This document shows positions 1-53,260 of a stretch of DNA of 64,000 nucleotides, one piece after another. A program made the translations under genes and the position numbers. The notes below the pieces were generated by a model that was not told where the DNA came from, made no database searches, and was given only the letters and a program-made list of their open reading frames with translations. This DNA is from Isurus oxyrinchus (lineage: Eukaryota): contig JANJGN010000523.1 of the NCBI GenBank assembly GCA_026770705.1, positions 248,001 through 312,000 on the forward strand, read 5' to 3'. Positions within the stretch are counted from its first letter, which is position 1; each line of letters starts with the position of its first letter.

Positions 1-2169
1 TTTACGTGCATTGTGTGGATTACGGGAATGATACATCGAAGTTTGGCTGTATTATTATCAAGGGGAGGCTCCGAAAATGGCGCCAAATTGCCAGGGCTAC
101 ATTAATTATTAAAAATAAAACTGCTGTTGGAATGTGGGTGGATATTTAAACTCCGGAGTCCTGCTTTAGTGATGTTGCACTCCAATTTTTATTACCGATA
201 TGAGTACCCGGATAGTGCTTGAACATTTTTAAGCTGCCCACTTATAAATATATCATGTGAAATACACGTTTAGAACAGAAGAGCTTTTACATCGTGCAAA
301 CATAATCACAAACATGGAAATCTTACACGGGTGTAGATATAAGAGCACATTCTTATAAATTGTTGATCATCTTAATGTATTAAAAATAATATAATGTATT
401 TGTCCAGAAGTTTATGGAATGATTTGGTTAATTTAAGAAGTGTCACCTTAATTTAATTAAGCCTATTATTAACAAGAGACAAATCAGAAGAAGAATAAAA
501 TTATTAACAAATTTGGCATAATGGAGTTAAATATCACCAATATGAAAATACAGTCTAAGATCACTACGAATTAATTACAAAAACATCTCTCAAATGTGCT
601 GCGCTGGGTCCAGGATTAAAGTTAAAACTCATTGTTGGAGAATTTTTAAAATTATTTTCAATTAACTTGGAAAGCAACATGTTTCTCACTCAACTACCTT
701 TAGCTCCATTGGATATTGCTCTACAATTTAATTAATTATCTTCGTGCTTTGCCTCAGCAGTTTCAATGATTATATATTATTCTGAAATTATGTCAGTGAA
801 TAATAGGAGTTCAGTGTAAATATCTCCCGATTTGTTAAATTTTTGCTCTGTTACAATGTCCCTGTTATAGACATAAATTACCATGAATGTAAATTATTTT
901 GATGTACCTGTTCTCAGCCAAACTTACTCCAAGGCTGTTGTGAAAGCTGTACACAGACAGGGAGAAATTGAGGCCCGTCAAATGGAGTTTTTTCCATTTA
1001 GAAGCAAAATAATTTCATAGAAGTGACATGGTCATAAATTTACAAACGTTTTAATCTATTCAAACGGATTAATGGATACTGGAGAAATCTATCTTTAATA
1101 GACTGATTTTTGCATTGTTTATGTCTGTTCTGTTTCTATGCGCGTGGTCACTGTGTGAGAATCAGGAGCCTTCTGGCTGTTTGTGAACTTTCTGGTTCAT
1201 TCTCCTGTAATTCAGGGAATTAATTTCGGACCATTTATTTAAGAAGTTTGTATATCCGAGAAAGGTGCAAATCTGTTCTTAAGTTTGAGAATATGCCTCA
1301 GAAATAAGATCAGTTTCCCAGTTTGTGGAATTCAGAAGGAATGCAAAGTGTAGAAAGATATTTTTCCTGTTCAGTGTTTGCTGTATCAGAGCCTGTGGTT
1401 TGATGATGGTCCAGTCTAAACGCAAGTTTTAACTAACAATGCGGAATAGAGGGCGTTTTAGAATGCATCCCACCATTTATATTCCTGAAATACAGCGCTT
1501 CACAGGACTGTGCAAAGAGAGTTTTAGTATAATTCACCTGTTCTGTATCTGACATGAGAGTGTTGGCACTCTCAATTTTCAAGGAACTTTAATCAGTATC
1601 AAACGCATTGGGCGTGAGTGCTCCAAATTAGATATGTAAAAGTAAATGATTCAATTCCTTCAATGAAGTAGCAGATCGTTAATTTAACATACGTTTCATT
1701 CTAAAAAAAAGCCAAGTTTGTGATTAAGGGATGATGATTAAACATTTTCAATAGCAGATAATACTTGAATCAGATTGGCCTGATCTAAAGCTTAATTTCA
1801 GGACAGTTACAGGAAGTCACTGTAATGTTACCGTCTGCGATATGATCGAATCTGAAAATAACTTGTGCAACGTAAATAGACAGTATGGTGCCTTACTCCT
1901 TGTTAAACGGAAACTACGGTGGGAATGAGAGCTGGAAAAATATGAATTTAACTTAACTCAATGCACAACCTGATTCCAACTGCCCGAAGGACATTTGATG
2001 AACTATCAGAGAGGCAATTTTACTCTTGTTCCAAGGCCTTACTAGGGCTGTGGGTTTTATGTGGAACTTCAATGTTCTTCTCTCTTGTATCTAATCAGTG
2101 CAGTCTGTGAACTGTGAACGTTTGATTGTGCAGGGCAGATGGAACTCCTTTTTCTGAACATTTATCTAT

Positions 2170-3090
2170 TCATGCATCCATTTTCCATCCATCGATGCAA
2201 AGATGGATGNNNNNNNNNNNNNNNNNNNNNNNNNNNNNNNNNNNNNNNNNNNNNNNNNNNNNNNNNNNNNNNNNNNNNNNNNNNNNNNNNNNNNNNNNNN
2301 NNNNNNNNNNNNNNNNNNNNNNNNNNNNNNNNNNNNNNNNNNNNNNNNNNNNNNNNNNNNNNNNNNNNNNNNNNNNNNNNNNNNNNNNNNNNNNNNNNNN
2401 NNNNNNNNNNNNNNNNNNNNNNNNNNNNNNNNNNNNNNNNNNNNNNNNNNNNNNNNNNNNNNNNNNNNNNNNNNNNNTGTCTATCTATGTATCTATAGAT
2501 CTGTCTATCTATGTATCTATAGATCTGTCTATCTAGGTATCTATAGATCTGTCTATCTATGTATCTATAGATCTGTCTATCTATGTATCTATAGATCTGT
2601 CTATCTATGTATCTATAGATCTGTCTTTCTATGTATCTATAGATCTGTCTATCTATGTATCTATAGATCTGTTTATCTATGTATCTGTCTGTCTCTATCT
2701 TCTATCATTCTCTATCGCTCTTTTTCTATCGCTCTCTCTCTCTATCCATCCANNNNNNNNNNNNNNNNNNNNNNNNNNNNNNNNNNNNNNNNNNNNNNNN
2801 NNNNNNNNNNNNNNNNNNNNNNNNNNNNNNNNNNNNNNNNNNNNNNNNNNNNNNNNNNNNNNNNNNNNNNNNNNNNNNNNNNNNNNNNNNNNNNNNNNNN
2901 NNNNNNNNNNNNNNNNNNNNNNNNNNNNNNNNNNNNNNNNNNNNNNNNNNNNNNNNNNNNNNNNNNNNNNNNNNNNNNNNNNNNNNNNNNNNNNNNNNNN
3001 NNNNNNNNNNNNNNNNNNNNNNNNNNNNNNNNNNNNNNNNNTACTGATCTCTTTAACTCTCTGTCTATCTATCTATCTGTTTATCTAACC
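2170..3090. repeat. (TCTA)-derived simple repeat with a 24-bp higher-order unit (TGTCTATCTATGTATCTATAGATC), broken by N gaps at 2210-2477 and 2753-3041
   Basis: The unit is directly visible about 8 times at 2478-2690; the flanks are TCTA/TCCA-rich. Confidence 0.95.
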
Positions 3091-3558
3091 AAGATAGCTG
3101 AAATAATTGATTATTTGTAAACATCATTGAGAATTGGCAAATTTGGAGAGTTAATTCAAAATTGTGATTGGCCGAAAACCAACAGTCCATGCTATCAAAT
3201 AGTCTCATTGATCAACTCTGGGTCATGCTTTATAAAAGTGCTAAAACATTGTCTGTAAGTAATGAAGCTAGTCGATCCACCGGTCAGAGTTACATAATCT
3301 TTAGAGTAAATGCTGCCAAGCATCATCCACGTTTATCCTCTAAAAACGACAACATGTTGATAATGAAACTACAATAAATTAGCATAAAAACCCCTCTGGC
3401 CCACTGATGTCCGTCATGGAAGATAATCGGCCATCCTGGCCCAGAGATAGGTAAATGTTAGTGCATTAAATTAGTCATTTGCTGGTGAGAAGAGGTTGAT
3501 AGTAAAATACTTTAAGCGAGAGCTCAGTGAAAATAATGTGGAAGGGTCTAAAGTGAAA

Positions 3559-3755
3559 GTAAAAACAAAAAAACTGCGGATGCTGGAAATCCAAAACAAA
3601 AACAGAATTACCTGGAAAAACTCAGCAGGTCCGGCAGCATCAGCAGAGAAGAAAAGAGTTGACGTTTCGAGTCCTCATGACCCTTCGACAGAACTTGAGT
3701 TCGAGTCCAAGAAAGAGTTGAAATATAAGCTGGTTTAAGGTGTGTGTGGGGGGCG

Positions 3756-3788
<33 letters not shown>

Positions 3789-5405
3789 GTTGGGGTTGTG
3801 GGGGGTTGGGGGGGGGGGATGTGGCTGTGTGGACAAACAAGCAGTGATAGAAGCAGATCATCAAAAGATGTCAACGACAATGGTACAATAGAACACATAG
3901 GTGTTAAAATTAAAGTTGGTGATATTATCTAAACGAATGTGCTAATTAAGAATGGATGGTAGGGCACTCAAAGTATAGCTCTAGTGGGTTTTTTTTTTAT
4001 ATAATAGAAATAGGTGGGAAAAGGAAAATCTTTATAATTTATTGGGAAAAAAAGGAAGGGGGAAACAGAAAGGGGGTGGGGATGGGGGAGGGAGCTCACG
4101 ACCTAAAGTTGTTGAATTCAATATTCAGTCCGGAAGGCTGTAAGGTGCCTAGTCGGAAGATGAGCTGTTGTTCCTCCAGTTTGCGTTGGGCTTCACTGGA
4201 ACAATGCAGCAAGCCAAGGACAGACATGTGGGCAAGAGAGCAGGGTGGAGTGTTAAAATGGCAAGCGACAGGGAGGTTTGGGACATTCTTGCGGACAGAC
4301 CACAGGTGTTCTGCAAAGCAGTCGCCCAGTTTACGTTTGGTCTCTTCAATGTAGAGGAGACCATATTGGGAGCAACGAATGCAGTAGACCAAGTTGGGGG
4401 AAATGCAAGTGAAATACTGCTTCACTTGAAAGGAGTGTTTGGGCCCTTGGACGGTGAGGAGAGAGGAAGTGAAGGGGCAGGTGTTACATCTTTTGCGTGG
4501 GCATGGGGTGGTGCCATAGGAGGGGGTTGAGGAGTAGGGGGTGATGGAGGAGTGGACCAGGGTGTCCCGGAGGGAGCAATCCCTACGGATTGCAGATAAG
4601 GGGGGTGAAGGGAAGATGTGTTTGGTGGTGGCATCATGCTGGAGTTGGCGGAAATGGCGAAGGATGATCCTTTGAATGCAGAGGCTGGTGGGGTGATAAG
4701 TGAGGACAAGGGGGACCCTATCATGTTTCTGGGAGGGAGGAGAAGGCGTGAGTGCGGATGCGCGGGAGATGGGCTGGACACGGTTGAGGGCCCTGTCAAC
4801 GACCATGGGTGGAAAACCTCGGTTAAGGAAGAAGGAGGACATGTCAGAGGAACCATTTTTGAAGGTAGCATCATCAGAACAGATGCGACGGAGGCGAAGG
4901 AACTGAGAGAATGGGATGGAGTCCTTACAGGAAGCGGGGTGTGAGGAGCTGTAGTCGAGGTAGCTGTGGGAGTCAGTGGGTTTGTAATGGATATTGGTGG
5001 ACAGTCTATCACCAGAGATTGAGACAGAGAGGTCAAGGAAGGGAAGGGAAGTGTCAGAGATGGACCACGTGAAAATGATGGAGGGGTGGAGATTGGAAGC
5101 AAAATTAATAAATTTTTCCAAGTCCCGACGAGAGCATGAAGCAGCACCGAAGTAATCATCGATGTACCGGAGAAAAAGTTGTGGAAGGGGGCCGGAGTAG
5201 GACTGCAACAAGGAATGTTCCACATACCCCATAAAGAGACAGGCATAGCTGGGGACCATGTGGGTACCCATAGCCACACCTTTTATTTGGAGGAAGTGAG
5301 AGGAGTTGAAGGAGAAATTGTTCAGTGTGAGAACAAGTTCAGCCAGACGGAGGAGAGTAGTGGTGGATGGGGATTGTTCGGGCCTCCGTTCGAGGAAGAA
5401 GCTAA
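3559..5405 (-). mobile_element. Penelope-like retroelement (Neptune-type), 5'-truncated; left arm of a fold-back insertion
   Basis: ORF 4096..5436(-) has RT motifs GVAMG and RYIDD, a Cys-rich linker CPRKRCNTC and a GIY-YIG-type endonuclease (LVYCIRC...LYIEET). The 3' noncoding end runs to 3559. Confidence 0.93.
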
Positions 5406-7577
5406 AGTACCTCTCCCTGGACCATGACCCCACCACTGAACATCAAGCCATTGTTCCTAGGACTGTCACTGACCTCATCTCCTCTGGGGATCTCCGTCCC
5501 ACAGCTTCCAACCTGATAGTCGCCCAACCTCGGACAGCCCGCTTCTATCTCCTACCCAAAATCCACAAACAGAACTGCCCCGGTAGACCGATCATCTCAG
5601 CTTGCTCCTGCCCCACAGAACTCATCTCTCGTTATCTTGACTCCATTCTCTCTCCCCTTGTCCAGTCCCTTCCCACCTACATCCGTGATTCCTCAGACAC
5701 CTTATGTCACATCAACAATTTCCAGTTCCATGGCCCCAACCGCTTCCTCTTCACCATGGACGTCGAATCCCTCTACATCTCCATCCCTCACCAGGATGGT
5801 CTAAGGGCCCTTAGCTTCTTCCTCGAACAGAGGCCCGAACAATCCCCATCCACCACTACTCTCCTCCGTCTGGCTGAACTTGTTCTCACGTTGAACAATT
5901 TCTCCTTCAACTCCTCTCACTTCCTCCAAATAGAAGGTGTGGCTATGGGTACTCGCATGGGCCCCAGCTATGCCTGTCTCTTTATGGGGTATGTGGAACA
6001 TTCCTTGTTACAGTCCTACTCCGGCCCCCTTCCACAACTCTTTCTCCGGTACATCGATGATTACTTAATGCTGCTTCATGCTCTCGTCGGGACTTGGAAA
6101 AATTTATTAATTTTGCTTCCAATCTCCACCCCTGCATCATTTTCACGTGGTCCATCTCTGACACTTCCCTTCCCTTCCTTGACCTCTCTGTCTCAATCTC
6201 TGGTGATAGACTGTCCACCAATATCCATTACAAACCCACTGACTCCCACAGCTACCTCGACTACAGCTCCTCACACCCCGCTTCCTGTAAGGGCTCCATC
6301 CCATTCTCCCAGTTCCTTCGCCTCTGTCGCATCTGTTCCGATGATGCTACCTTCAAAAACGGTTCCTCTGACATGTCCTCTTTCTTCCTTAACCGAGGTT
6401 TTCCACCCACGGTCGTTGACAGGGCCCTCAACCGTGTCCGGCCCATCTCCCGCGCATCCGCCCTCACGCCTTCTCCTCCCTCCCAGAAACATGATAGGGT
6501 CCCCCTTGTCCTCACTTATCAACCCACCAGCCTTCGCATTCAAAGGATCATCCTTCGCCATTTCCGCCAACTCCAGCATGATGCCACCACCAAACAGATC
6601 TTCCCTTCACCCCCCTTATCGGCATTCCGTAGGGAACACTCCCTCCGGGACACCCTGGTCCACTCCTCCATCACCCCCTACTCTTCAACCCCCTCCTATG
6701 GCACCACCCCATGCCCACGCAAAAGATGTAACACCTGCCCCTTCACTTCCTCTCTCCTCACCGTCCAAGGGCCCAAACATTCCTTTCAAGTGAAGCAGCA
6801 TTTCACTTGCATTTCCCCCAACTTAGTCTACTGCATTCGTTGCTCCCAGTGTTGTCTCCTCTACATTGGAGAGACCAAACGTAAACTGGGCGACCGCTTT
6901 GCAGAACACCTGCGGTCTGTCCGCAAGAATGACCCAAACCTCCCTGTCGCTTGCCATTTTAACACTCCACCCTGCTCTCTTGCCCACATGTCTGTCCTTG
7001 GCTTGCTGCATTGTTCCAGTGAAGCCCAACGCAAACTGGAGGAACAACACCTCATCTTCCGATTAGGCACCTTACAGCCTTCCGGTCTGAATATTGAATT
7101 CAACAACTTTAGGTTGTGAGCTCCCTCCCCCATCCCCACCCCCTTTCTGTTTCCACCTTCCTTTTTTTTCCCAATAAATTATAAAGATTTTCCTTTTCCC
7201 ACCTATTTCTATTGTATAAAAAAACCCCACTAGAGCTATACCTTGAGTGCCCTACCATCCATTCTTAATTAGCACATTCGTTTAGATAATATCACCAACT
7301 TTAATTTTAACACCGATGTGTTCTTTTGTACCATTGTCACTGACATCTTTTGATGATCTGCTTCTATCACTGCTTGTCTGTCTACACAAGCACCTCTCTC
7401 TCTCTCTATCTCTCCGCCCCCCCACACACACACCTTAAACCAGCTTATATTTCAACTCTTTCTTGGACTCGAACTCAAGTTCTGTCGAAGGGTCATGAGG
7501 ACTCGAAACGTCAACTCTTTTCTTCTCCGCCGATGCTGCCAGACCTGCTGAGTTTTTCCAGGTAATTCTGGTTTTGT
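5406..7577 (+). mobile_element. Penelope-like retroelement (Neptune-type), 5'-truncated and frameshifted near 6065; right arm of the fold-back insertion
   Basis: ORFs 5306..6793 and 6094..7119 join into RT (YLLPKIHK, PGRPIIS, FTMDVESLY, GVAMG, YIDD) plus GIY-YIG (VYCIRC...LYIGET). 5811-7577 is the inverted copy of the left arm. TSD TCTAAAGTGAAA at 3547-3558 and 7578-7589. Confidence 0.94.
7478..7516 (+). ncRNA. Minimal type I hammerhead-ribozyme-like motif in the Penelope terminal repeat (mirror copy at 3657-3695, minus strand)
   Basis: AGTT-CTGTCGA-A-GGGTC-ATGAG-GACTC-GAAA-CGTC-AACT: helix I AGTT/AACT, CUGANGA-like core with one deviation, helix II, GAAA, palindromic ACGT in place of helix III. 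Confidence 0.7.
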
Positions 7578-7905
7578 TCTAAAGTGAAACTGTTTGAGGA
7601 ATGATTGACATTTTCCTCAACAGAGGAGTAAGGGCTGGAGGAAGCCCAGGTTACAATATCCCTTATTTAACTCGCAGTTATGTGGCCTCTTGGGCAGTAT
7701 TTCCCTTTTCCGACTTGTGCCTCATCTTGTGTACAAGACTGGCCATCATGGCGGCGTGTCCCGTCGGGCATATCAACTCCTAAGTGCAATTTATGACCAG
7801 GATATTTTGGAAATAAATTATCCCAATATTAAACTTCGAACAATTTGCTTATTTTATACTCACGAATCACATTTTTAACTTGTTCCACTGACTTTTCATT
7901 CGCAG

Positions 7906-8205
7906 TGACACCGTCTCCCCCCACCCTCTACGCTCTGCTCTCCTCCTGTGAACAAGCAAACACTGCCGGCTCCATCACCTCCGGCTGCTTAGCTGTGGAC
8001 TACTCCCTCGAAATCACCAGCGTTTCCTGGAAGAAAGGTCAAGAGACGATCACAGCTGGATTGAAGACTTACCCATCAGTACTGAACAAGAAGGGAACCC
8101 ACACCCTGACCAGCCAGTTAACCATCACCGAATCCGAGGTGGGAAGCAGCACAATCTACTGCGAGGTTCGATGGAGTGACTCGGTCTGGCTGAAGGAAAT
8201 GCCAG
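7906..8205 (+). pseudogene. IGHM: IgM heavy chain constant exon Cmu1 (CH1)
   Basis: Acceptor ttttcattcgcag, donor AG|gttcgt, 300 bp. Translates [16 protein letters not shown]...GCLAVDY...SWKK...[12 protein letters not shown]...[20 protein letters not shown], a C1-set Ig domain resembling elasmobranch Cmu1. Confidence 0.95.
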
Positions 8206-8319
8206 GTTCGTGTTGTGGGATGCACAGGGCGGCAGTGGCGGGGCTGGGTGAAGGGGGAACGTGGTCAGCAAATGAGTTATGTTCAAATTCTGCATCACAT
8301 GGGTTAGAATGGAGTTAGA

Positions 8320-8610
8320 GTTTTGTGTATAGTTCAGGTGCTTATATGACACTTAGTGTGGATACCTGTATTCTCCACAGCACACTTAATGGTTTGTGTA
8401 GAGTTCTGGCCTCCATATCACACTTAGTGTGATATGCACAGCTCTGGTCTCCACATCATAGTTATTGTACTGTGGATAGTTTTGTTCTCCACTTCACAAA
8501 GTAGTGTACTGTGTATAATTAAGGCCTCCACATCACAATAGGTGTACTGTGTGCAGTTATCCCCCTCCAAATCACATCGAGTACACTGTATGTAGTTCTC
8601 GTTTCCACGT
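8320..8610 (+). repeat. Degenerate 38-39-bp tandem repeat (about 7-8 copies) derived from CR1 ORF2
   Basis: CTCCA anchor recurs at 8373, 8411, 8449, 8487, 8526, 8565 and (TTCCA) 8603; consensus approximately CACTTAGTGTACTGTGTATAGTTCTGGTCTCCACATCA. Confidence 0.8.
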
Positions 8611-9075
8611 AAGAAGAATGCTACAGGGGCATTGCAATAGGAGCTAAACTACGTACAAGGACAATACCAGAGCTGATAGATTACTTCTGTTAAGTAACAG
8701 CGGGTTGGTGCTCTATTCTCTACAAAATAAAAAGTTGTGTTGTGACCGAATAAAGGTCCTCAAACTTCCGAAATAATTTGATAGATTAGACAAGAATTAG
8801 AGCTCATGTTAACAACAGAATGTTAAAAAAAAACAATTGGCAAATCTGAATCTTCTTTACACAAAGAGTAAGCGGAATATGGGAATTTCTGGAGGTGAGA
8901 TGTTACTGAGACCCTATTGAGGGGAATCTTAATAGGTACATGAGGGAGATTGTAATGGAGGTGGTTTTTAAACTGCGAGGTGAAATAGGGCGAGAGGATG
9001 TTCGTGTGGATCCTAAACTCCAGCAATGAACTATGGGGCCGCCTGGCCTGGTTCTGTCCTGTGGATTTTATGTAA
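8610..9075 (+). mobile_element. Highly decayed CR1 LINE 3' fragment
   Basis: Continues from the EYCVQFWSP-like repeat and ends in a CR1-type tail (atggggccgcctggcctggttctgtcctgt...ttttatgt) like other CR1 tails in the window. Confidence 0.55.
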
Positions 9076-9145
9076 ATTGTTTTAGAGTTTTTAATTGTTT
9101 GGCTTGAAGCAAAATTAATTCCTAATAATATGTATTTTCTTGCAG

Positions 9146-9457
9146 ATATTGTGCTGCATCATCCGACTGTTCTGCTTACCGTGAGCCCCAGTGAAGAAAT
9201 CACAAGCAGCAGATCTGCAACCATCGTCTGTTCAATCGTTGATTTCCGTCCAAATTCAATCAAGGTGAAATGGCTGAAGAATGGACAGGCCATGGCCTCG
9301 GGCTTCGTCACCTCTCCCAGCTTTGAAGTGAACAGGAACTTCTCGGCAACCAGTCGGTTGACAGTCCCCGCTGGGGACTGGTTCAGTCACACGCTCTATA
9401 CCTGCTAGGTGACTCATAAAGGGGTCACTCAAAGCCGAAACATCACCAAACCTGAGG
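9146..9457 (+). pseudogene. IGHM: IgM heavy chain constant exon Cmu2 with premature stop (TAG at 9406-9408)
   Basis: Acceptor ttttcttgcag, donor G|gtaaga, 312 bp. [14 protein letters not shown]...[12 protein letters not shown]...VKWLKNG...[10 protein letters not shown]...LYTC*VTHKGVTQSRNITKPE; the frame continues as Ig sequence after the stop. Confidence 0.95.
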
Positions 9458-9939
9458 GTAAGAGACACAACCCGAGAAAGCTCAAGGCCATTCTTGGTGC
9501 CAATCTCTGTCCAAACCAAGAAATAGTTTGGAATGATTGAAAGTCAGAGAATGTGTCCCATTTGCCAATTTTCCCGTTTGAGTATCCTTCCAAAGGAAAC
9601 AAAAACACACTGAAGGTAACCTTTCATTTATATAGCGTCGTCCCCAGCATCAGATTCTCCCAAAACACTTAGCAGCCAATGAATGATCGTGGAAATGTTC
9701 TCATTGTCGTAAAGTAGAATATTCAGCAGCGATTTGCTGTACAACAGTTTCCAAGAAACTGGGACATGATGCTGACAGGAGTTATTTATTTATTTATTGA
9801 TTTCATTCTGTTTGTTCAGGGACACATGTTGTCCAGGAAACAGACAAACTTCAGCTAAGCATTTCGAACGTTTTCTTTTCATTTTTATTTCAAGTTTCCA
9901 GCAATATTTGGCTTTTAGAACTAAAGAACATTATTGGAT

Positions 9940-11990
9940 TTGCTGTTGGGGAGAGTTAAATTAACTCAGGAGGAGCGTGGGAACAACGAGAGAATTTCAG
10001 CATGTAATAGCATGGATTCTGGGAGCGGCAGCTAACTCTAAAAGAGGGAATATTCAGTTAATAGATGGAGTCAGGATAAGGGAGCAAGCAATGAATTCTA
10101 AATCAGCGTTGCAATGCATGTATATGCATGCATGGAAAATAGCTAATAAAATTTGGGAGTTACAGGCACAGATTGCCTTTTGGGATTATTATGATGGGGC
10201 GATAACGGAGACCTAATTTAAGGAATGACAGAATTGAGTGTTAATTATTCCTAGTTACAAGATGTTCATAAAAGACAGGAAATGGCATAAAATGGGGGCG
10301 AAGCCGTGGTGGCATTTTTGTTTAAGGAGAGTATTGCAGCACTGGTGAAAAATAATGTCTCAGGCGATTCAAGGACAGAACCAATTTGGCTGGAGCAAAG
10401 GAATAAGAAGGGTGCAATTACATTGCTGGGTGTAATGTATAGACCACAATAGTTAGTGGGGAGATAGAGAGGAGCAAGGAAATAACAGAGGTGTAAAGAT
10501 CATCGAGTAGTTATAATGGAGGGAGGAGGGGTTCATTACCCGAATATATACTGGGATAGTGGGACCGTAAGGGACAGTGAGGGAGCAGCATTCCAGGATT
10601 ATACCCTGGACAATTTGCTACAGCAGTGTGTGCCCATTGCAAGATGAAAGGAGGCACTGCTAGACCTGGTTCTTGGAATGAGGTGGGCCAAGTAAACAAA
10701 TTGATCGGAGGGAAGCATTTAGGGGACAGTGATCATTGTGTCATAAGGTTTAGGATAACGCTGGAAAATGACATTGATCAAGCCAGGGTAAGAGTTGCCA
10801 ACTGGCAGAGAGCGGGCTTCAATGGGGCAATAATGGGGCTGGGCCTGATGGACTGGAACCAAAAGTTGGTGGGAAAAACATTAGCTGAACAATGAGCTCC
10901 TTCAAAGAGGAGATGGTTTTGAAAGTATGTTCCCTCAAAAGGGAAGGCCAGGCGAAAAAAATCCGGAGCTCCCTGGATGGCAAAGGAAGTAGAAATTAAG
11001 TTAAGGAAGAAAAAATGTGCTTACAACACGTGTCGGGTAGCAGATACATTTGAGAATCCAAGCTGAATACAGCAGGTTCAGAAAGGATGTGCAAAAGCAA
11101 ATACAAGAAGCAAAGAGAGATTATAAAAAAAGACGGACAGCTAACAAGAAAGGAAATCCCAAAGTATTCTATAAGCATATCAATCGTAAAAAGGTTGTAA
11201 AAGGAGGAATAGGCCGATTAAGGATCGAAAACGGGATTTACACATGTAGGCAAGAGGCATGGCTGAAGTGTTAAATGAATATTTTCCATCAGTCTTTACC
11301 TTTAGGTAGATGCTGCCCAGGCCATGGTGACAGAAGAGGAAACTCAGTCACTATAAAGGGTTTGAAATTGCTAAGGATGAGGTATTGCATCAACTGTTGG
11401 CTCTTAAAGTTGATAAGGCAAGGGACAGGGTGAGATGCGTCCAAGAGTATTGAAGGGAGTGAGAGTGGAAATTGCAGAAACAGTGACAATAATCTTTCAG
11501 CGTTCCCTACATTTGGGGGAGGTGCTGGAGGACTGGAGAATTGCAAATATTACGCCCTTATTAAAAAAAAGTTTGAAAAGTGATCCCTGCAAATACAGAC
11601 GAGTCAGTTTAACTTCGGGGGTGGGGAAACTTCTAGAAACAATTATTCCAGATGGAATTAATATCATGTGTGATAATGTAGATTGTTTAGGAAGAGTCAT
11701 CATGGATTTATTAAAGGAAAATCCTGTATAACTAACTTGCTAGAGTTTTTTCAAGAGGTAACAGAGATGATTAATGAGGGCAAGGCCGTTGATATGGGCT
11801 ATATGGACTTCCAAAAGGTGTTCGATACAGTTCCACACAACAGACCTGTGAGGAAAGTTATAGATCATGGAATTAAAGGGACAATAGCTAAGTGGATAAA
11901 TATTTATATATATAAATGATCTAGATCTTGGTTTGCAGGGGACAGTTTAAAGGTTTGTGGACGACCCAAAACTTGGGAGAATTTGGGGAA
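9940..11990 (+). mobile_element. Decayed CR1-type LINE ORF2 fragment in the Cmu2-Cmu3 intron
   Basis: Broken ORFs with AP-endonuclease remnants (GAITET, LGDSDH) and RT remnants (WRIANITPL, RVSLTSGVGKLLE, HHGF, YMDFQKVFDTVPH). Confidence 0.9.
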
Positions 11991-46134: not shown

Positions 46135-46359
46135 AGGGCATAATTTTTATGCAATTTGGTAGCAACCTTTCAGGAGAGCACTTAAAAAAAAGCTGGAAAT
46201 CCAAAACAACAATAAAAATACCTGGAAAAACTCAGCAGGTCAGACAGCATCTGCGGAGAGGAACACAGTTAACGTTTCGATCCCGTATGGCTCTTCAACA
46301 GAACCTGTTGTTTCACAGTGTTTACAACACTGTATAAAGATATCGGAAGATCATGTCAG

Positions 46360-51110: not shown

Positions 51111-51524
51111 CAGAACAGACAAGGGAGAGGGTGAGCATTTTAAAAGGAACTAACTTCTGTAGAGAAATGAACAAGAGTCGACACACATTGTGTTTTGCAC
51201 AAAGCTGATTTATTTGACTTTTATCCAATATTTTAACCCCTATAACTGAGATGGAGTTTATTAACATCAGCAGAAACAGACCATTGAACATGGTTCAGTC
51301 CAAAATGTGATTAACAGCAAAATCCAATCACTGCAGTTACTTGTCAACTTGAGTTAATGTTTTGAGTCCATGTAACTTTTCTGAAGACGAGTCCATACAG
51401 ACTCGAAACGTTTAACTTTGTTTCCCTGTTCACAGCTGCTGCCAGACCTGTTGAATCTTTCCACGTTTTGTTTTTACTTGAGATTTCCAGCATCTGCAGC
51501 ATTTTGCCTTTATATTTGTGAACT

Positions 51525-52215: not shown

Positions 52216-52257
52216 TTTCCAAACACTCGGTGTAAACTCGGCTCCGGGAGTTTCTAA

Positions 52258-52391
52258 GATAAAGGCAAAATAGTGCGGATGCTGGAAATCTGAAACAAAA
52301 ACAAAAAATGCTGGTAAAACTCAGCAGGTCTGACAGCATCTGTGCAGAGAAAGACAGAGTTAATGTTTCAAGTCCGTATGACTCTTCTGCA
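52258..52391 (-). mobile_element. Short Penelope terminal-repeat insertion with a hammerhead-like motif
   Basis: TSD GAGTTTCTAA at 52248-52257 and 52392-52401; minus strand CTGCAGA-A-GAGTC-ATACG-GACTT-GAAA-CATTAACT. Confidence 0.8.
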
Positions 52392-52399
52392 GAGTTTCT

Positions 52400-53260
52400 A
52401 ATCCGGGTTTGGAGTCCTACACCGGGTGGTTGTGAACCCTCCCAGTCCATAGTCCGGCTCCATTCTGCTCCTGCACTCGGCACTTTCTCACCGGCTGGAC
52501 TTTCCATTCCGGTTCCCCCGCTGTCACTGCGCATGCTCCATACTCACCCGGCTCCGCCCCCTATTCAAAACAAAAACAAGAAAAACTAGTTCTGTTGAAG
52601 GGTCATGAGGACTCGAAACGTCAACTCTTTTCTTCTCCGCCGATGCTGCCAGACCTGCTGAGTTTTTCCAGGTAATTCTGTTTTTGTTTTGGATTTCCAG
52701 CATCTGTAGTTTTTTTGTTTTTATTTCCGCCCCCTATTCACTCTGATTGGGTGGAGGACCAGCCTCACCCGCACCGTTCGTCAGCCGCGTCCCTTCTTGC
52801 TATTGGCCTGGAGCTGCCGTCAATCATTGTGAGCTGGCGCATGCGCAGTCCGTGGCAGCAGACGGGGAGACAACTCGAAGAACGGATTTAAAATGCGGAG
52901 TTTAGAAAGAACGAGTGCGGATCCAGAGCCGAAATTAAAACCGTAAATAGAGAGATGGCTGGCGGGTGAGTTGGGAAGATTCATAAACTCACGGTGTCGG
53001 CCCAAAATCCTCAATAAGGAGCCATCTGTCCCGCGTTCGCTCGGCGCTGCGAGAGAAAGGCCCCAGATTACAGCCGCCATCTTTATAGGGGCAATGTAAT
53101 GATGGGCGCATGCGCGACCACCATCTTCATAGCGGCAAGTGCAGCAATGCGCATGCGCCCACCATCCCAGGGAGGGAGGTGCAATGTGCTATAGGGCGCG
53201 TGCGCATTTTGCGTTAGGTGACAAGGCCTGAGGGATACATTCATAAAATGTGCGGTCACC
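52400..53260. promoter_or_regulatory. CpG-island, probably bidirectional promoter
   Basis: Local CpG enrichment; NRF1-type GCGCATGCGC at 52837, 53106 and 53149; YY1-type GCCGCCATCTT at 53073; GC boxes at 52554 and 52727; ATTGG at 52746 and 52802; outward-facing splice donors (GG|GTGAGT at 52966 on plus, about 52547 on minus). Confidence 0.8.
52568..52725 (+). mobile_element. 158-bp solo Penelope terminal-repeat insertion with hammerhead-like motif (52588-52626)
   Basis: Nearly identical to 7478-7577 and to the reverse complement of 3560-3695; perfect 15-bp TSD TCCGCCCCCTATTCA at 52553-52567 and 52726-52740. Confidence 0.9.

What the first reader, a model, noticed from the sequence alone, without database searches (positions are those of the whole stretch)
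3547..7589. A 4-kb fold-back Penelope insertion, made in one event, inside the IgM transcription unit
Seen: two 5'-truncated copies of the same element are fused head-to-head at about 5405/5406, giving arms of about 1.8 kb (3559-5405 and 5811-7577) around a loop of about 400 bp. One perfect 12-bp duplication (TCTAAAGTGAAA) brackets the whole structure, so it is a single integration. Both arms contain the element's 3' end, unlike L1 twin-priming inversions, whose segments do not overlap. Known: Penelope-like elements do form inverted partial copies. Inference: both target DNA ends were primed at an RNA 3' end and the two cDNAs were joined. Because it ends about 330 bp before the Cmu1 acceptor, the IgH pre-mRNA would fold into a kilobase-scale hairpin (ADAR/Dicer substrate, possible cruciform in DNA), which may have silenced this cluster.
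Basis: partly seen in the sequence, partly recalled or inferred. Interest (0 to 1): 0.7.

Follow-up and report, generated by a model that had tools for sequence, protein, structure and literature searches.

The report
Fold-back Penelope insertion in IgM pseudogenes
A jumping gene pasted two back-to-back partial copies of itself into an intron of a shark-type antibody gene, likely in one step; this mirror-image shape is the usual footprint of this element, the antibody gene and its seven sister copies are broken by ordinary mutations, and nothing shows that the insertion switched them off.

Summary
The structure is real. Two 5'-truncated copies of a Neptune-like Penelope element (RT, then GIY-YIG) meet head to head at 5405/5408. 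The target duplication is 14 bp, not 12, and occurs once in empty paralogous IgM clusters. The same insertion lies in the J-Cmu1 intron of 8 IgM clusters.

The shape is routine: 33 of 63 sampled family insertions are fold-backs. It is described as typical for PLEs, and this scan has noted it repeatedly elsewhere in this genome.

The family data constrain the mechanism. In 29 of 30 intact fold-backs the 34-nt tail is at exactly one end. Paired arms share subfamily markers (10% discordant against 40% at random). Here neither arm contains the other, which excludes simple snap-back copying. Best reading: both target ends primed cDNA, at two start sites, on one RNA or on RNAs of one source.

Silencing is unsupported. 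All 8 clusters share a V frameshift, 6 carry the same Cmu2 stop allele, the order of events is unresolved, and no RNA data exist. The arms also show arm-to-arm gene conversion. Verdict: new member of a known kind.

The parts
3547..3560 (+). Left target-site duplication, 14 bp
   Evidence: Single copy at empty paralogous sites; same in the filled copies
3561..5405 (-). Left arm: 5'-truncated PLE copy (about unit positions 1479-3286 of a 3286-bp family copy), with tail
3561..3594 (-). 34-nt PLE 'tail', present only on this arm
   Evidence: compare PMC8557442 fig. 2 legend
3657..3695 (-). Minimal type I hammerhead-like motif with U at core position 6; activity untested
   Evidence: Motif scan; Rfam gave no hammerhead match
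4096..5405 (-). ORF fragment, RT C-terminal part to GIY-YIG, open to its stop
   Evidence: Translation
5406..5407 (.). Inverted junction: 2 bases that belong to neither arm
   Evidence: Identical in 8 of 8 copies; compared with a family copy
5408..5810 (+). Loop: element sequence present only in the right arm (RT N-terminal part)
5408..7577 (+). Right arm: longer 5'-truncated copy (unit positions 1076-3252), no tail; ORF fragment 5408-7119 with a 1-nt deletion near 6066
   Evidence: Pfam RVT_1 E=5.9e-8, GIY-YIG E=0.0019, below its curated cut-off
6712..6738 (+). CX4CxxC linker motif between RT and endonuclease (Neptune/Nematis type)
   Evidence: Translation; motif definition in PMC8557442
6826..6870 (+). 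GIY-YIG core with two Cys between the motifs (CCHH type)
7173..7178 (+). AATAAA in the element's 3' UTR, sense to the IgM transcript; use untested
7478..7516 (+). Minimal hammerhead-like motif of the right arm, same U6 variant
7578..7591 (+). Right target-site duplication (13 of 14 matching in this copy)
7906..8205 (+). IgM Cmu1 exon, open, AG/GT intact
9146..9457 (+). IgM Cmu2 exon with premature TAG at 9406-9408
13056..19485 (+). Cmu3 (13056-13361), Cmu4 plus secretory tail (13830-14221) and TM1 (19358-19485), all open in this copy

Best explanation
This is a dead, head-to-head insertion of a Neptune-like Penelope retrotransposon, likely made in one event by priming reverse transcription from both cut target strands, in the J-Cmu1 intron of an IgM cluster that is now a pseudogene. 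Shown: anatomy, 14-bp duplication, empty sites, 8 copies, coding lesions, and the family-wide pattern. Inferred: the endonuclease cut both strands 14 nt apart. One 3' end primed at the tail end of the RNA and the other about 34 nt further in, on the same RNA or on RNAs of the same source copy. The two cDNAs stopped at different points and were end-joined. The cluster was then duplicated as a non-functional clade, and its arms occasionally exchanged sequence by gene conversion. The insertion is most likely a passenger, not the cause of inactivation.
For: One duplication with empty sites. Neither arm contains the other: the left has the tail, the right has 400 bp more 5' sequence. Family: 33 of 63 insertions are fold-backs; 29 of 30 with both 3' ends intact have the tail at exactly one end and none at both; 10 of 28 direct insertions with a visible 3' end have it. 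The tail is on the shorter arm in 14 of 29; a duplication of 10 bp or more was found for 27 of 31; junction overlaps run from -6 to +13 nt. Arms share subfamily markers: 23 of 225 discordant in 26 pairs against a null of 40% (minimum 26% in 5000 draws), replicated in the second sample alone (14 of 126 against 42%). Locus-private alleles are mostly unshared (36 against 333), so later conversion does not explain this. The reconstructed IgM arm ancestors differ at 13 of 1500 non-CpG sites, none a common family variant. In vitro, a PLE protein cuts and extends both strands, starts at two adjacent sites bounding the tail, and is predicted to be a dimer (PMC11167929). The V frameshift is in exactly the 8 filled clusters, and 10 of 11 empty clusters read have an open V.
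Against: The window's own arm pair is discordant at 5 of 16 markers, close to random; the range over the 8 copies is 0-5. The same-source reading therefore rests on the reconstructed ancestor and on the family. A few family pairs are clearly discordant (L107 4/9, L098 3/6, L032 4/15). One RNA cannot be told from two RNAs of one source. The family samples are top hits (40 scored of 13,673 and of 3,673 candidates) and lean to long, young copies. The in vitro work is on a Poseidon element, whereas this one is Neptune-like. The perfect association of fold-back and V frameshift also fits the insertion having killed the gene first.
Confidence: 0.72

Rival explanations
1. The fold-back itself inactivated a working IgM cluster, through pre-mRNA hairpin editing or decay, premature polyadenylation at the sense AATAAA, or heterochromatin. 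The V frameshift and Cmu2 stop came afterwards.
For: The insertion is inside the J-Cmu1 intron. The predicted fold is -3588 kcal/mol, with 1720 arm-to-arm pairs and a longest perfect run of 158 bp (no shuffle control). 8 of 8 filled clusters are pseudogenes, against 1 of 11 empty ones read at V. No cluster with the exact frameshift motif lacks the insertion.
Against: The 8 copies descend from one ancestor, so this is one observation, not eight. Both arms lie within one intron and leave the acceptor free (328 bp away). Two coding lesions appear to sit on the same stem branch: the TAG allele is readable in 6 of 8. The post-insertion part of that stem looks short (13 arm differences per 2x1500 sites) beside 36 stem changes in about 2750 bp on the V side. 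That intronic inverted repeats are usually tolerated is recalled, not tested.
Confidence: 0.17
2. One target-primed cDNA (or an antisense RNA, as Arkhipova et al. 2013 proposed) folded back and primed on itself, producing the inverted arm by self-copying.
For: Self-priming was proposed for PLE inverted junctions with palindromes (PMC3846280, passages). The shared haplotype of the arms fits it. Some family fold-backs have near-symmetric turn points (L096, L081).
Against: Here the shorter arm has the tail that the longer arm lacks, so neither could be copied from the other, and this holds for about half of the fold-backs (14 of 29). There is no palindrome or microhomology at this junction, only 2 extra bases. 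A variant with a longer intermediate trimmed afterwards is not excluded.
Confidence: 0.08
3. Two independent insertions at the same site, or a later recombination that brought two copies together.
For: The window's arms differ by 3.5%, and their non-CpG distance (about 2.4%) is no smaller than that between random family copies (2.1%).
Against: One duplication brackets both arms, there is no second duplication at the junction, and empty sites are clean. Most arm differences arose after the clusters duplicated. The same layout recurs at half of the sampled loci.
Confidence: 0.03

Closest known systems
Canonical EN+ Penelope-like element insertions with an inverted 5'-truncated copy and a one-sided tail (Craig et al. 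2021, PMC8557442; Adineta vaga Pen2a, Arkhipova et al. 2013, PMC3846280; passages read)
   Same: Head-to-head inverted truncated copy, a 30-40 bp tail at one end only, a single short target duplication around the whole unit, partial tandems, RT followed by GIY-YIG, hammerhead-like motif at the 3' end.
   Different: The arms are long (1.8 kb, into the ORF) rather than pLTR-sized. The host site is an IgM J-Cmu intron, later copied into 8 clusters. The hammerhead core has U at position 6 throughout the family.
PAc (Poseidon, Anolis), Frangieh et al. 2024, PMC11167929 (parts 1-2 of 4 read)
   Same: Two RT start sites bounding the tail, cleavage and extension of both strands, and a predicted dimer; together these fit the one-tail rule seen here.
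   Different: PAc is Poseidon, while this family has the CX2-5CxxC linker that Penelope/Poseidon lacks. In the parts read, the paper does not derive fold-back insertions from the two start sites.
L1 twin priming (PMC12016303, passages read)
   Same: Two cDNAs primed from the two target strands, joined at an inverted junction inside one duplication.
   Different: In L1 the second primer anneals at variable internal sites and overlaps are short (median 12 bp). Here the second start is fixed about 34 nt from the first, so the overlap is the whole shorter arm. The frequency is about half of sampled insertions, against about 20% for L1.
Arm-to-arm gene conversion in Y-chromosome palindromes (PMC3723533; search listing and start of abstract only)
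   Same: Exchange between inverted arms without inversion of the spacer (0 of 8 copies flipped).
   Different: The arms are 1.8 kb of dead transposon and conversion is sparse: they remain about 96.5% identical, against over 99.9% in the Y palindromes.
Shark IgM miniloci VH-D1-D2-JH-Cmu, including pseudogene groups (PMC2435157, passages read)
   Same: Same gene order and spacing; the J-Cmu1 intron is about 6.0 kb without the insertion, against 6.3-6.8 kb in nurse shark; pseudogene clusters are known.
   Different: Here a clade of 8 pseudogene copies is marked by one PLE fold-back.

Membership tests
EN+ Penelope-like elements | Single ORF with RT followed by a C-terminal GIY-YIG endonuclease | tested here: met
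   Pfam RVT_1 above cut-off; GIY-YIG E=0.0019, below cut-off; intact 912-aa ORF in family copy L032
EN+ Penelope-like elements | CCHH motif with two Cys between GIY and YIG | tested here: met
   Read from the translation against the definition in PMC8557442
EN+ Penelope-like elements | Partial tandem and inverted insertions with a 30-40 bp tail at one end | tested here: met
EN+ Penelope-like elements | Hammerhead motif in the pLTR | tested here: inconclusive
   Minimal type I layout with the extra base between positions 9 and 10.1 and a palindromic loop 3 (features in PMC4209133), but core position 6 is U in 68 of 68 aligned copies; no Rfam match; cleavage untested
EN+ Penelope-like elements | RT phylogeny within PLEs | not tested
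   No reference PLE set was on hand
Neptune/Nematis clades | CX2-5CxxC linker between RT and EN | tested here: met
   CX4CxxC at 6712-6738; Neptune rather than Nematis is assumed from the vertebrate host (recalled), not tested
Penelope/Poseidon clade | Absence of the CX2-5CxxC linker | tested here: not met
   The linker is present
L1-type twin-priming inversion | Poly(A)-primed cDNA plus an internally primed inverted cDNA with little or no overlap | tested here: not met
   No poly(A); overlap about 1.8 kb; the element is not a LINE. It works like twin priming but is not an L1 product
Functional shark IgM minilocus | Open V and C exons | tested here: not met
   V 1-nt frameshift and Cmu2 stop
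Hairpin-silenced gene (ADAR/Dicer substrate) | Transcribed duplex RNA, editing or small RNAs, loss of spliced mRNA | not testable with these tools
   Only a folding prediction; no RNA holder listed

The most novel reading that the evidence does not exclude
Penelope fold-backs are made by a fixed twin priming on one RNA. A dimeric PLE protein cuts both strands about 14 nt apart, one target end primes at the tail end and the other about 34 nt inside, and the trailing polymerase displaces the first cDNA, so the same RNA is copied twice. This would explain at once the one-tail rule (29 of 30), the shared arm haplotypes (10% against 40% discordance), the random arm lengths and the end-joined centres, and it would make the inverted form a default product of about half of all insertions.
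Probability: 0.4. Interest if true: 0.62.

Novelty: new member of a known kind. Interest (0 to 1): 0.35.

Why it matters
The locus itself is ordinary. Its value is as a clean test case. PMC8557442 calls the origin of PLE tandem and inverted structures still undefined. The counts obtained here (tail at exactly one end, arms from one source lineage, arms that do not contain one another) narrow the models and give direct predictions for the in vitro system that now exists. The 8 duplicated copies also record arm-to-arm conversion in a transposon palindrome and mark a clade of dead IgM clusters, which is useful for annotating shark antibody loci. If the hairpin did silence the cluster, it would be a route to birth-and-death of Ig miniloci, but nothing here shows that.

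Tried and rejected
RNA evidence: no RNA holder was listed for window 7590-9480, and the best runs share at most 0.34 of the words, so they are apparently related organisms. This is no evidence on expression.

Related organisms' contigs were laid on the left junction and on V. The listed contigs carry the in-frame V base and empty-type flank alleles, and one flank contig ends at 3560. Contigs show presence only and the first output was cut, so I did not use this to date or order the events.

Rfam found no hammerhead or other credible family.

Ordering the insertion against the frameshift: no cluster with only one of the two was found, and branch-length arguments did not discriminate.

Assembly artefact was rejected for the structure. 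It is not excluded for conversion events private to one contig.

The fold was run without a shuffle control, because 96% complementary arms make the result trivial.

Literature searches found no paper counting tail asymmetry or arm haplotypes, and none on a PLE in shark IgM. The library lacks most subscription papers; Arkhipova 2006 and Evgen'ev and Arkhipova 2005 were not read, and no supplements were read, so such counts may be in print.
Full report
OBSERVATION. The window holds an inverted repeat with arms 3595-5405 and 5811-7578. The arms align with 1703 matches, 61 mismatches and 51 gap columns. The window is G000:C523:248001-312000, and its right flank matches at least 40 paralogous IgM clusters (40 scored of 109 candidates). 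I fetched 18 of these: 6 carry the same insertion and 12 are empty, with the flanks joined through one copy of the motif (10 exact, 2 variant). The empty site continues with GT, as does the right side of 6 of the 8 filled copies, so the duplication is 14 bp and the window has a later G>C change. A search with the left junction gives 8 filled copies among 40 scored of 143 candidates. The inverted junction, with 2 bases that belong to neither arm, is identical in all 8. Three pairs are only 0.6-0.8% apart and could be alleles, so there are at least 5 loci.

THE ELEMENT. Both arms encode the C-terminal part of an RT followed by a GIY-YIG endonuclease. A family copy has an intact 912-aa ORF, and the tandem unit is 3286 bp. 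The two Cys inside GIY-YIG and a CX4CxxC linker point to the Neptune/Nematis side rather than Poseidon, by the definitions in PMC8557442 (passages); no tree was built. Each arm ends in a minimal hammerhead-like motif whose core position 6 is U in 68 of 68 aligned copies; Rfam found nothing. The left arm covers about unit positions 1479-3286 and includes the 34-nt tail. The right arm covers 1076-3252 and lacks it. Neither arm contains the other.

HOW COMMON. I fetched 63 non-IgM loci from two searches: 34 and 29, after removing IgM copies and loci already held. 33 are fold-backs (32 by script, plus L025 classed by hand, because the script found no focal piece). I dropped L031 (cut by the locus edge) and L049 and L082 (left arm interrupted). 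Of the remaining 30, 29 have the tail at exactly one end, none at both and one at neither. Among direct insertions, 10 of 28 with a visible 3' end have the tail, so independent ends would give one tail in under half of cases. The script's binomial test on its own 29 of 31 against 0.5 gave p=2e-7. The tail is on the shorter arm in 14 of 29. Duplications of 10 bp or more were found for 27 of 31, and junction overlaps run from -6 to +13 nt. The samples are top hits and lean to long, young copies. The layout is published as typical of PLEs: an inverted 5'-truncated copy, a tail often at one end only, and a short duplication (PMC8557442; PMC3846280; passages). The scan has noted it several times on other DNA of this genome (unchecked notes).

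SOURCE OF THE ARMS. At non-CpG family markers, paired arms disagree at 23 of 225 cells in 26 pairs, against 40% for random partners (lowest of 5000 draws, 26%). The second sample alone gives 14 of 126 against 42%; the first analysis gave 9 of 142 against 38%. Locus-private alleles are mostly on one arm only (333 unshared, 36 shared), so later homogenisation is not the main cause. Against this, three pairs are clearly discordant, and the window's own pair differs at 5 of 16 markers (range 0-5 over the 8 copies). Those differences vary among paralogs and so post-date the insertion. The reconstructed ancestral arms differ at 13 of 1500 sites, none a common family variant, and both carry the same non-majority alleles at two markers.

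MECHANISM. Shown: one duplication, non-nested arms, the one-tail rule, shared lineage, end-joining-type centres. Published in vitro for a Poseidon element: cleavage and extension of both strands, two adjacent RT start sites that bound the tail, and a predicted dimer (PMC11167929, parts 1-2 of 4 read). Inferred: each target end primed one cDNA, one at each start site, on one RNA or on RNAs of one source, and the cDNAs were joined. Simple snap-back copying cannot give a shorter arm that has extra 3' sequence. L1 twin priming is the nearest analogue; its cDNAs overlap by a median of 12 bp when they overlap at all (PMC12016303, passages). The L1 'foldbacks' of bioRxiv 2024.12.14.628481 (passages) are chromosomal rearrangements and a different thing.

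THE HOST GENE. V, two D and J with their recombination signals lie 2.1-3.9 kb upstream of the window, and Cmu1-4, the secretory tail and TM1 follow. The insertion is thus within the J-Cmu1 intron, 328 bp before the acceptor. The intron is about 6.0 kb without it, close to the 6.3-6.8 kb of nurse shark (PMC2435157, passages). All 8 filled clusters share a 1-nt deletion in V, and an exact search finds that motif in those 8 contigs only. 10 of 11 empty clusters read have an open V. The Cmu2 TAG is in frame in 4 filled copies and readable behind a 2-nt deletion in 2 more; C358 and C336 have the intact codon, probably restored from other clusters (inference). Further stops or frameshifts occur in Cmu3 or Cmu4 of 5 copies. 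The filled clusters form one clade, 0.6-2.1% apart and 3.7-6.5% from the empty ones. The clade is therefore dead on coding grounds alone. The predicted RNA hairpin is very stable (-3588 kcal/mol, 1720 arm-to-arm pairs), and a sense AATAAA sits at 7173. But insertion, frameshift and probably the stop all map to one stem branch, and their order could not be resolved. I put the silencing reading at about 0.17.

AFTER INSERTION. Of 53 left-arm and 62 right-arm derived alleles absent from all sampled family copies, 14 are shared between the arm sets (0.85 expected) and 11 of these within the same cluster (0.28 expected; 20,000 simulations). For the sites where nearly all left arms carry the allele, same-cluster overlap is automatic; a permutation of cluster labels gives p=0.0085. 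Three alleles are private to both arms of one cluster (unit positions 1664, 2734, 2793). This points to arm-to-arm gene conversion. Polishing errors could mimic contig-private cases but are less likely for changes shared by sister clusters. Both arms and the loop orientation are intact in 8 of 8 copies, so there is no sign of cruciform-driven loss. Conversion with rare inversion is known from Y palindromes (PMC3723533, listing only).

VERDICT. A real, single-event fold-back of a known kind in a dead IgM clade. The claimed rarity does not hold, and the silencing is unsupported. The useful yield is the family-level constraint on how PLE inverted insertions form. Interest 0.35.

Noticed in passing
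G000 contigs C523, C358, C502, C336, C342, C544, C132, C506 (L001-L005, L016, L055): A clade of 8 IgM pseudogene clusters, each on a separate small contig, kept duplicating after it was dead. Changes fixed on its stem are concentrated on the V side (36 in about 2750 bp) against 4 in 2400 bp on the C side, which suggests recombination or conversion with intact clusters on the C side.
   Followed up: partly
L001 (C358) and L005 (C336), Cmu2 exon: These two filled clusters have the intact Gln codon where six sisters carry the TAG allele, possibly restored by conversion from working clusters.
   Followed up: partly
window 7478-7516 and 3657-3695; family-wide: The hammerhead-like core has U at position 6 in 68 of 68 aligned copies of a recently active family; related motifs at 46309, 51373 and 52584 have other cores.
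   Followed up: partly
L032:2203-4941 (-): Intact 912-aa ORF of this Neptune-like family inside another fold-back with 2.8-kb arms.
   Followed up: no
L051:5347-8051: A small fold-back of the family has inserted into an older copy of the same family, with a 14-bp duplication.
   Followed up: no
window about 10100-11900: Decayed LINE-like remnant in the Cmu2-Cmu3 intron, judged by eye from the sequence; not scanned.
   Followed up: no
window 2210-3080: (TCTA)n-type tandem repeat in the J-Cmu1 intron just upstream of the insertion; its length varies by kilobases among paralogs.
   Followed up: no
window 15220-18060: Long degenerate CA-rich tract between the secretory tail and TM1.
   Followed up: no
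window 46192-46312, 51380-51516, 52256-52726: Further short PLE 3'-end fragments of this and older families in both orientations.
   Followed up: no
L018 and L079 (C20): An empty IgM cluster that is independently a pseudogene (V frameshift, stops in Cmu1 and Cmu2), so such decay happens without the fold-back.
   Followed up: yes
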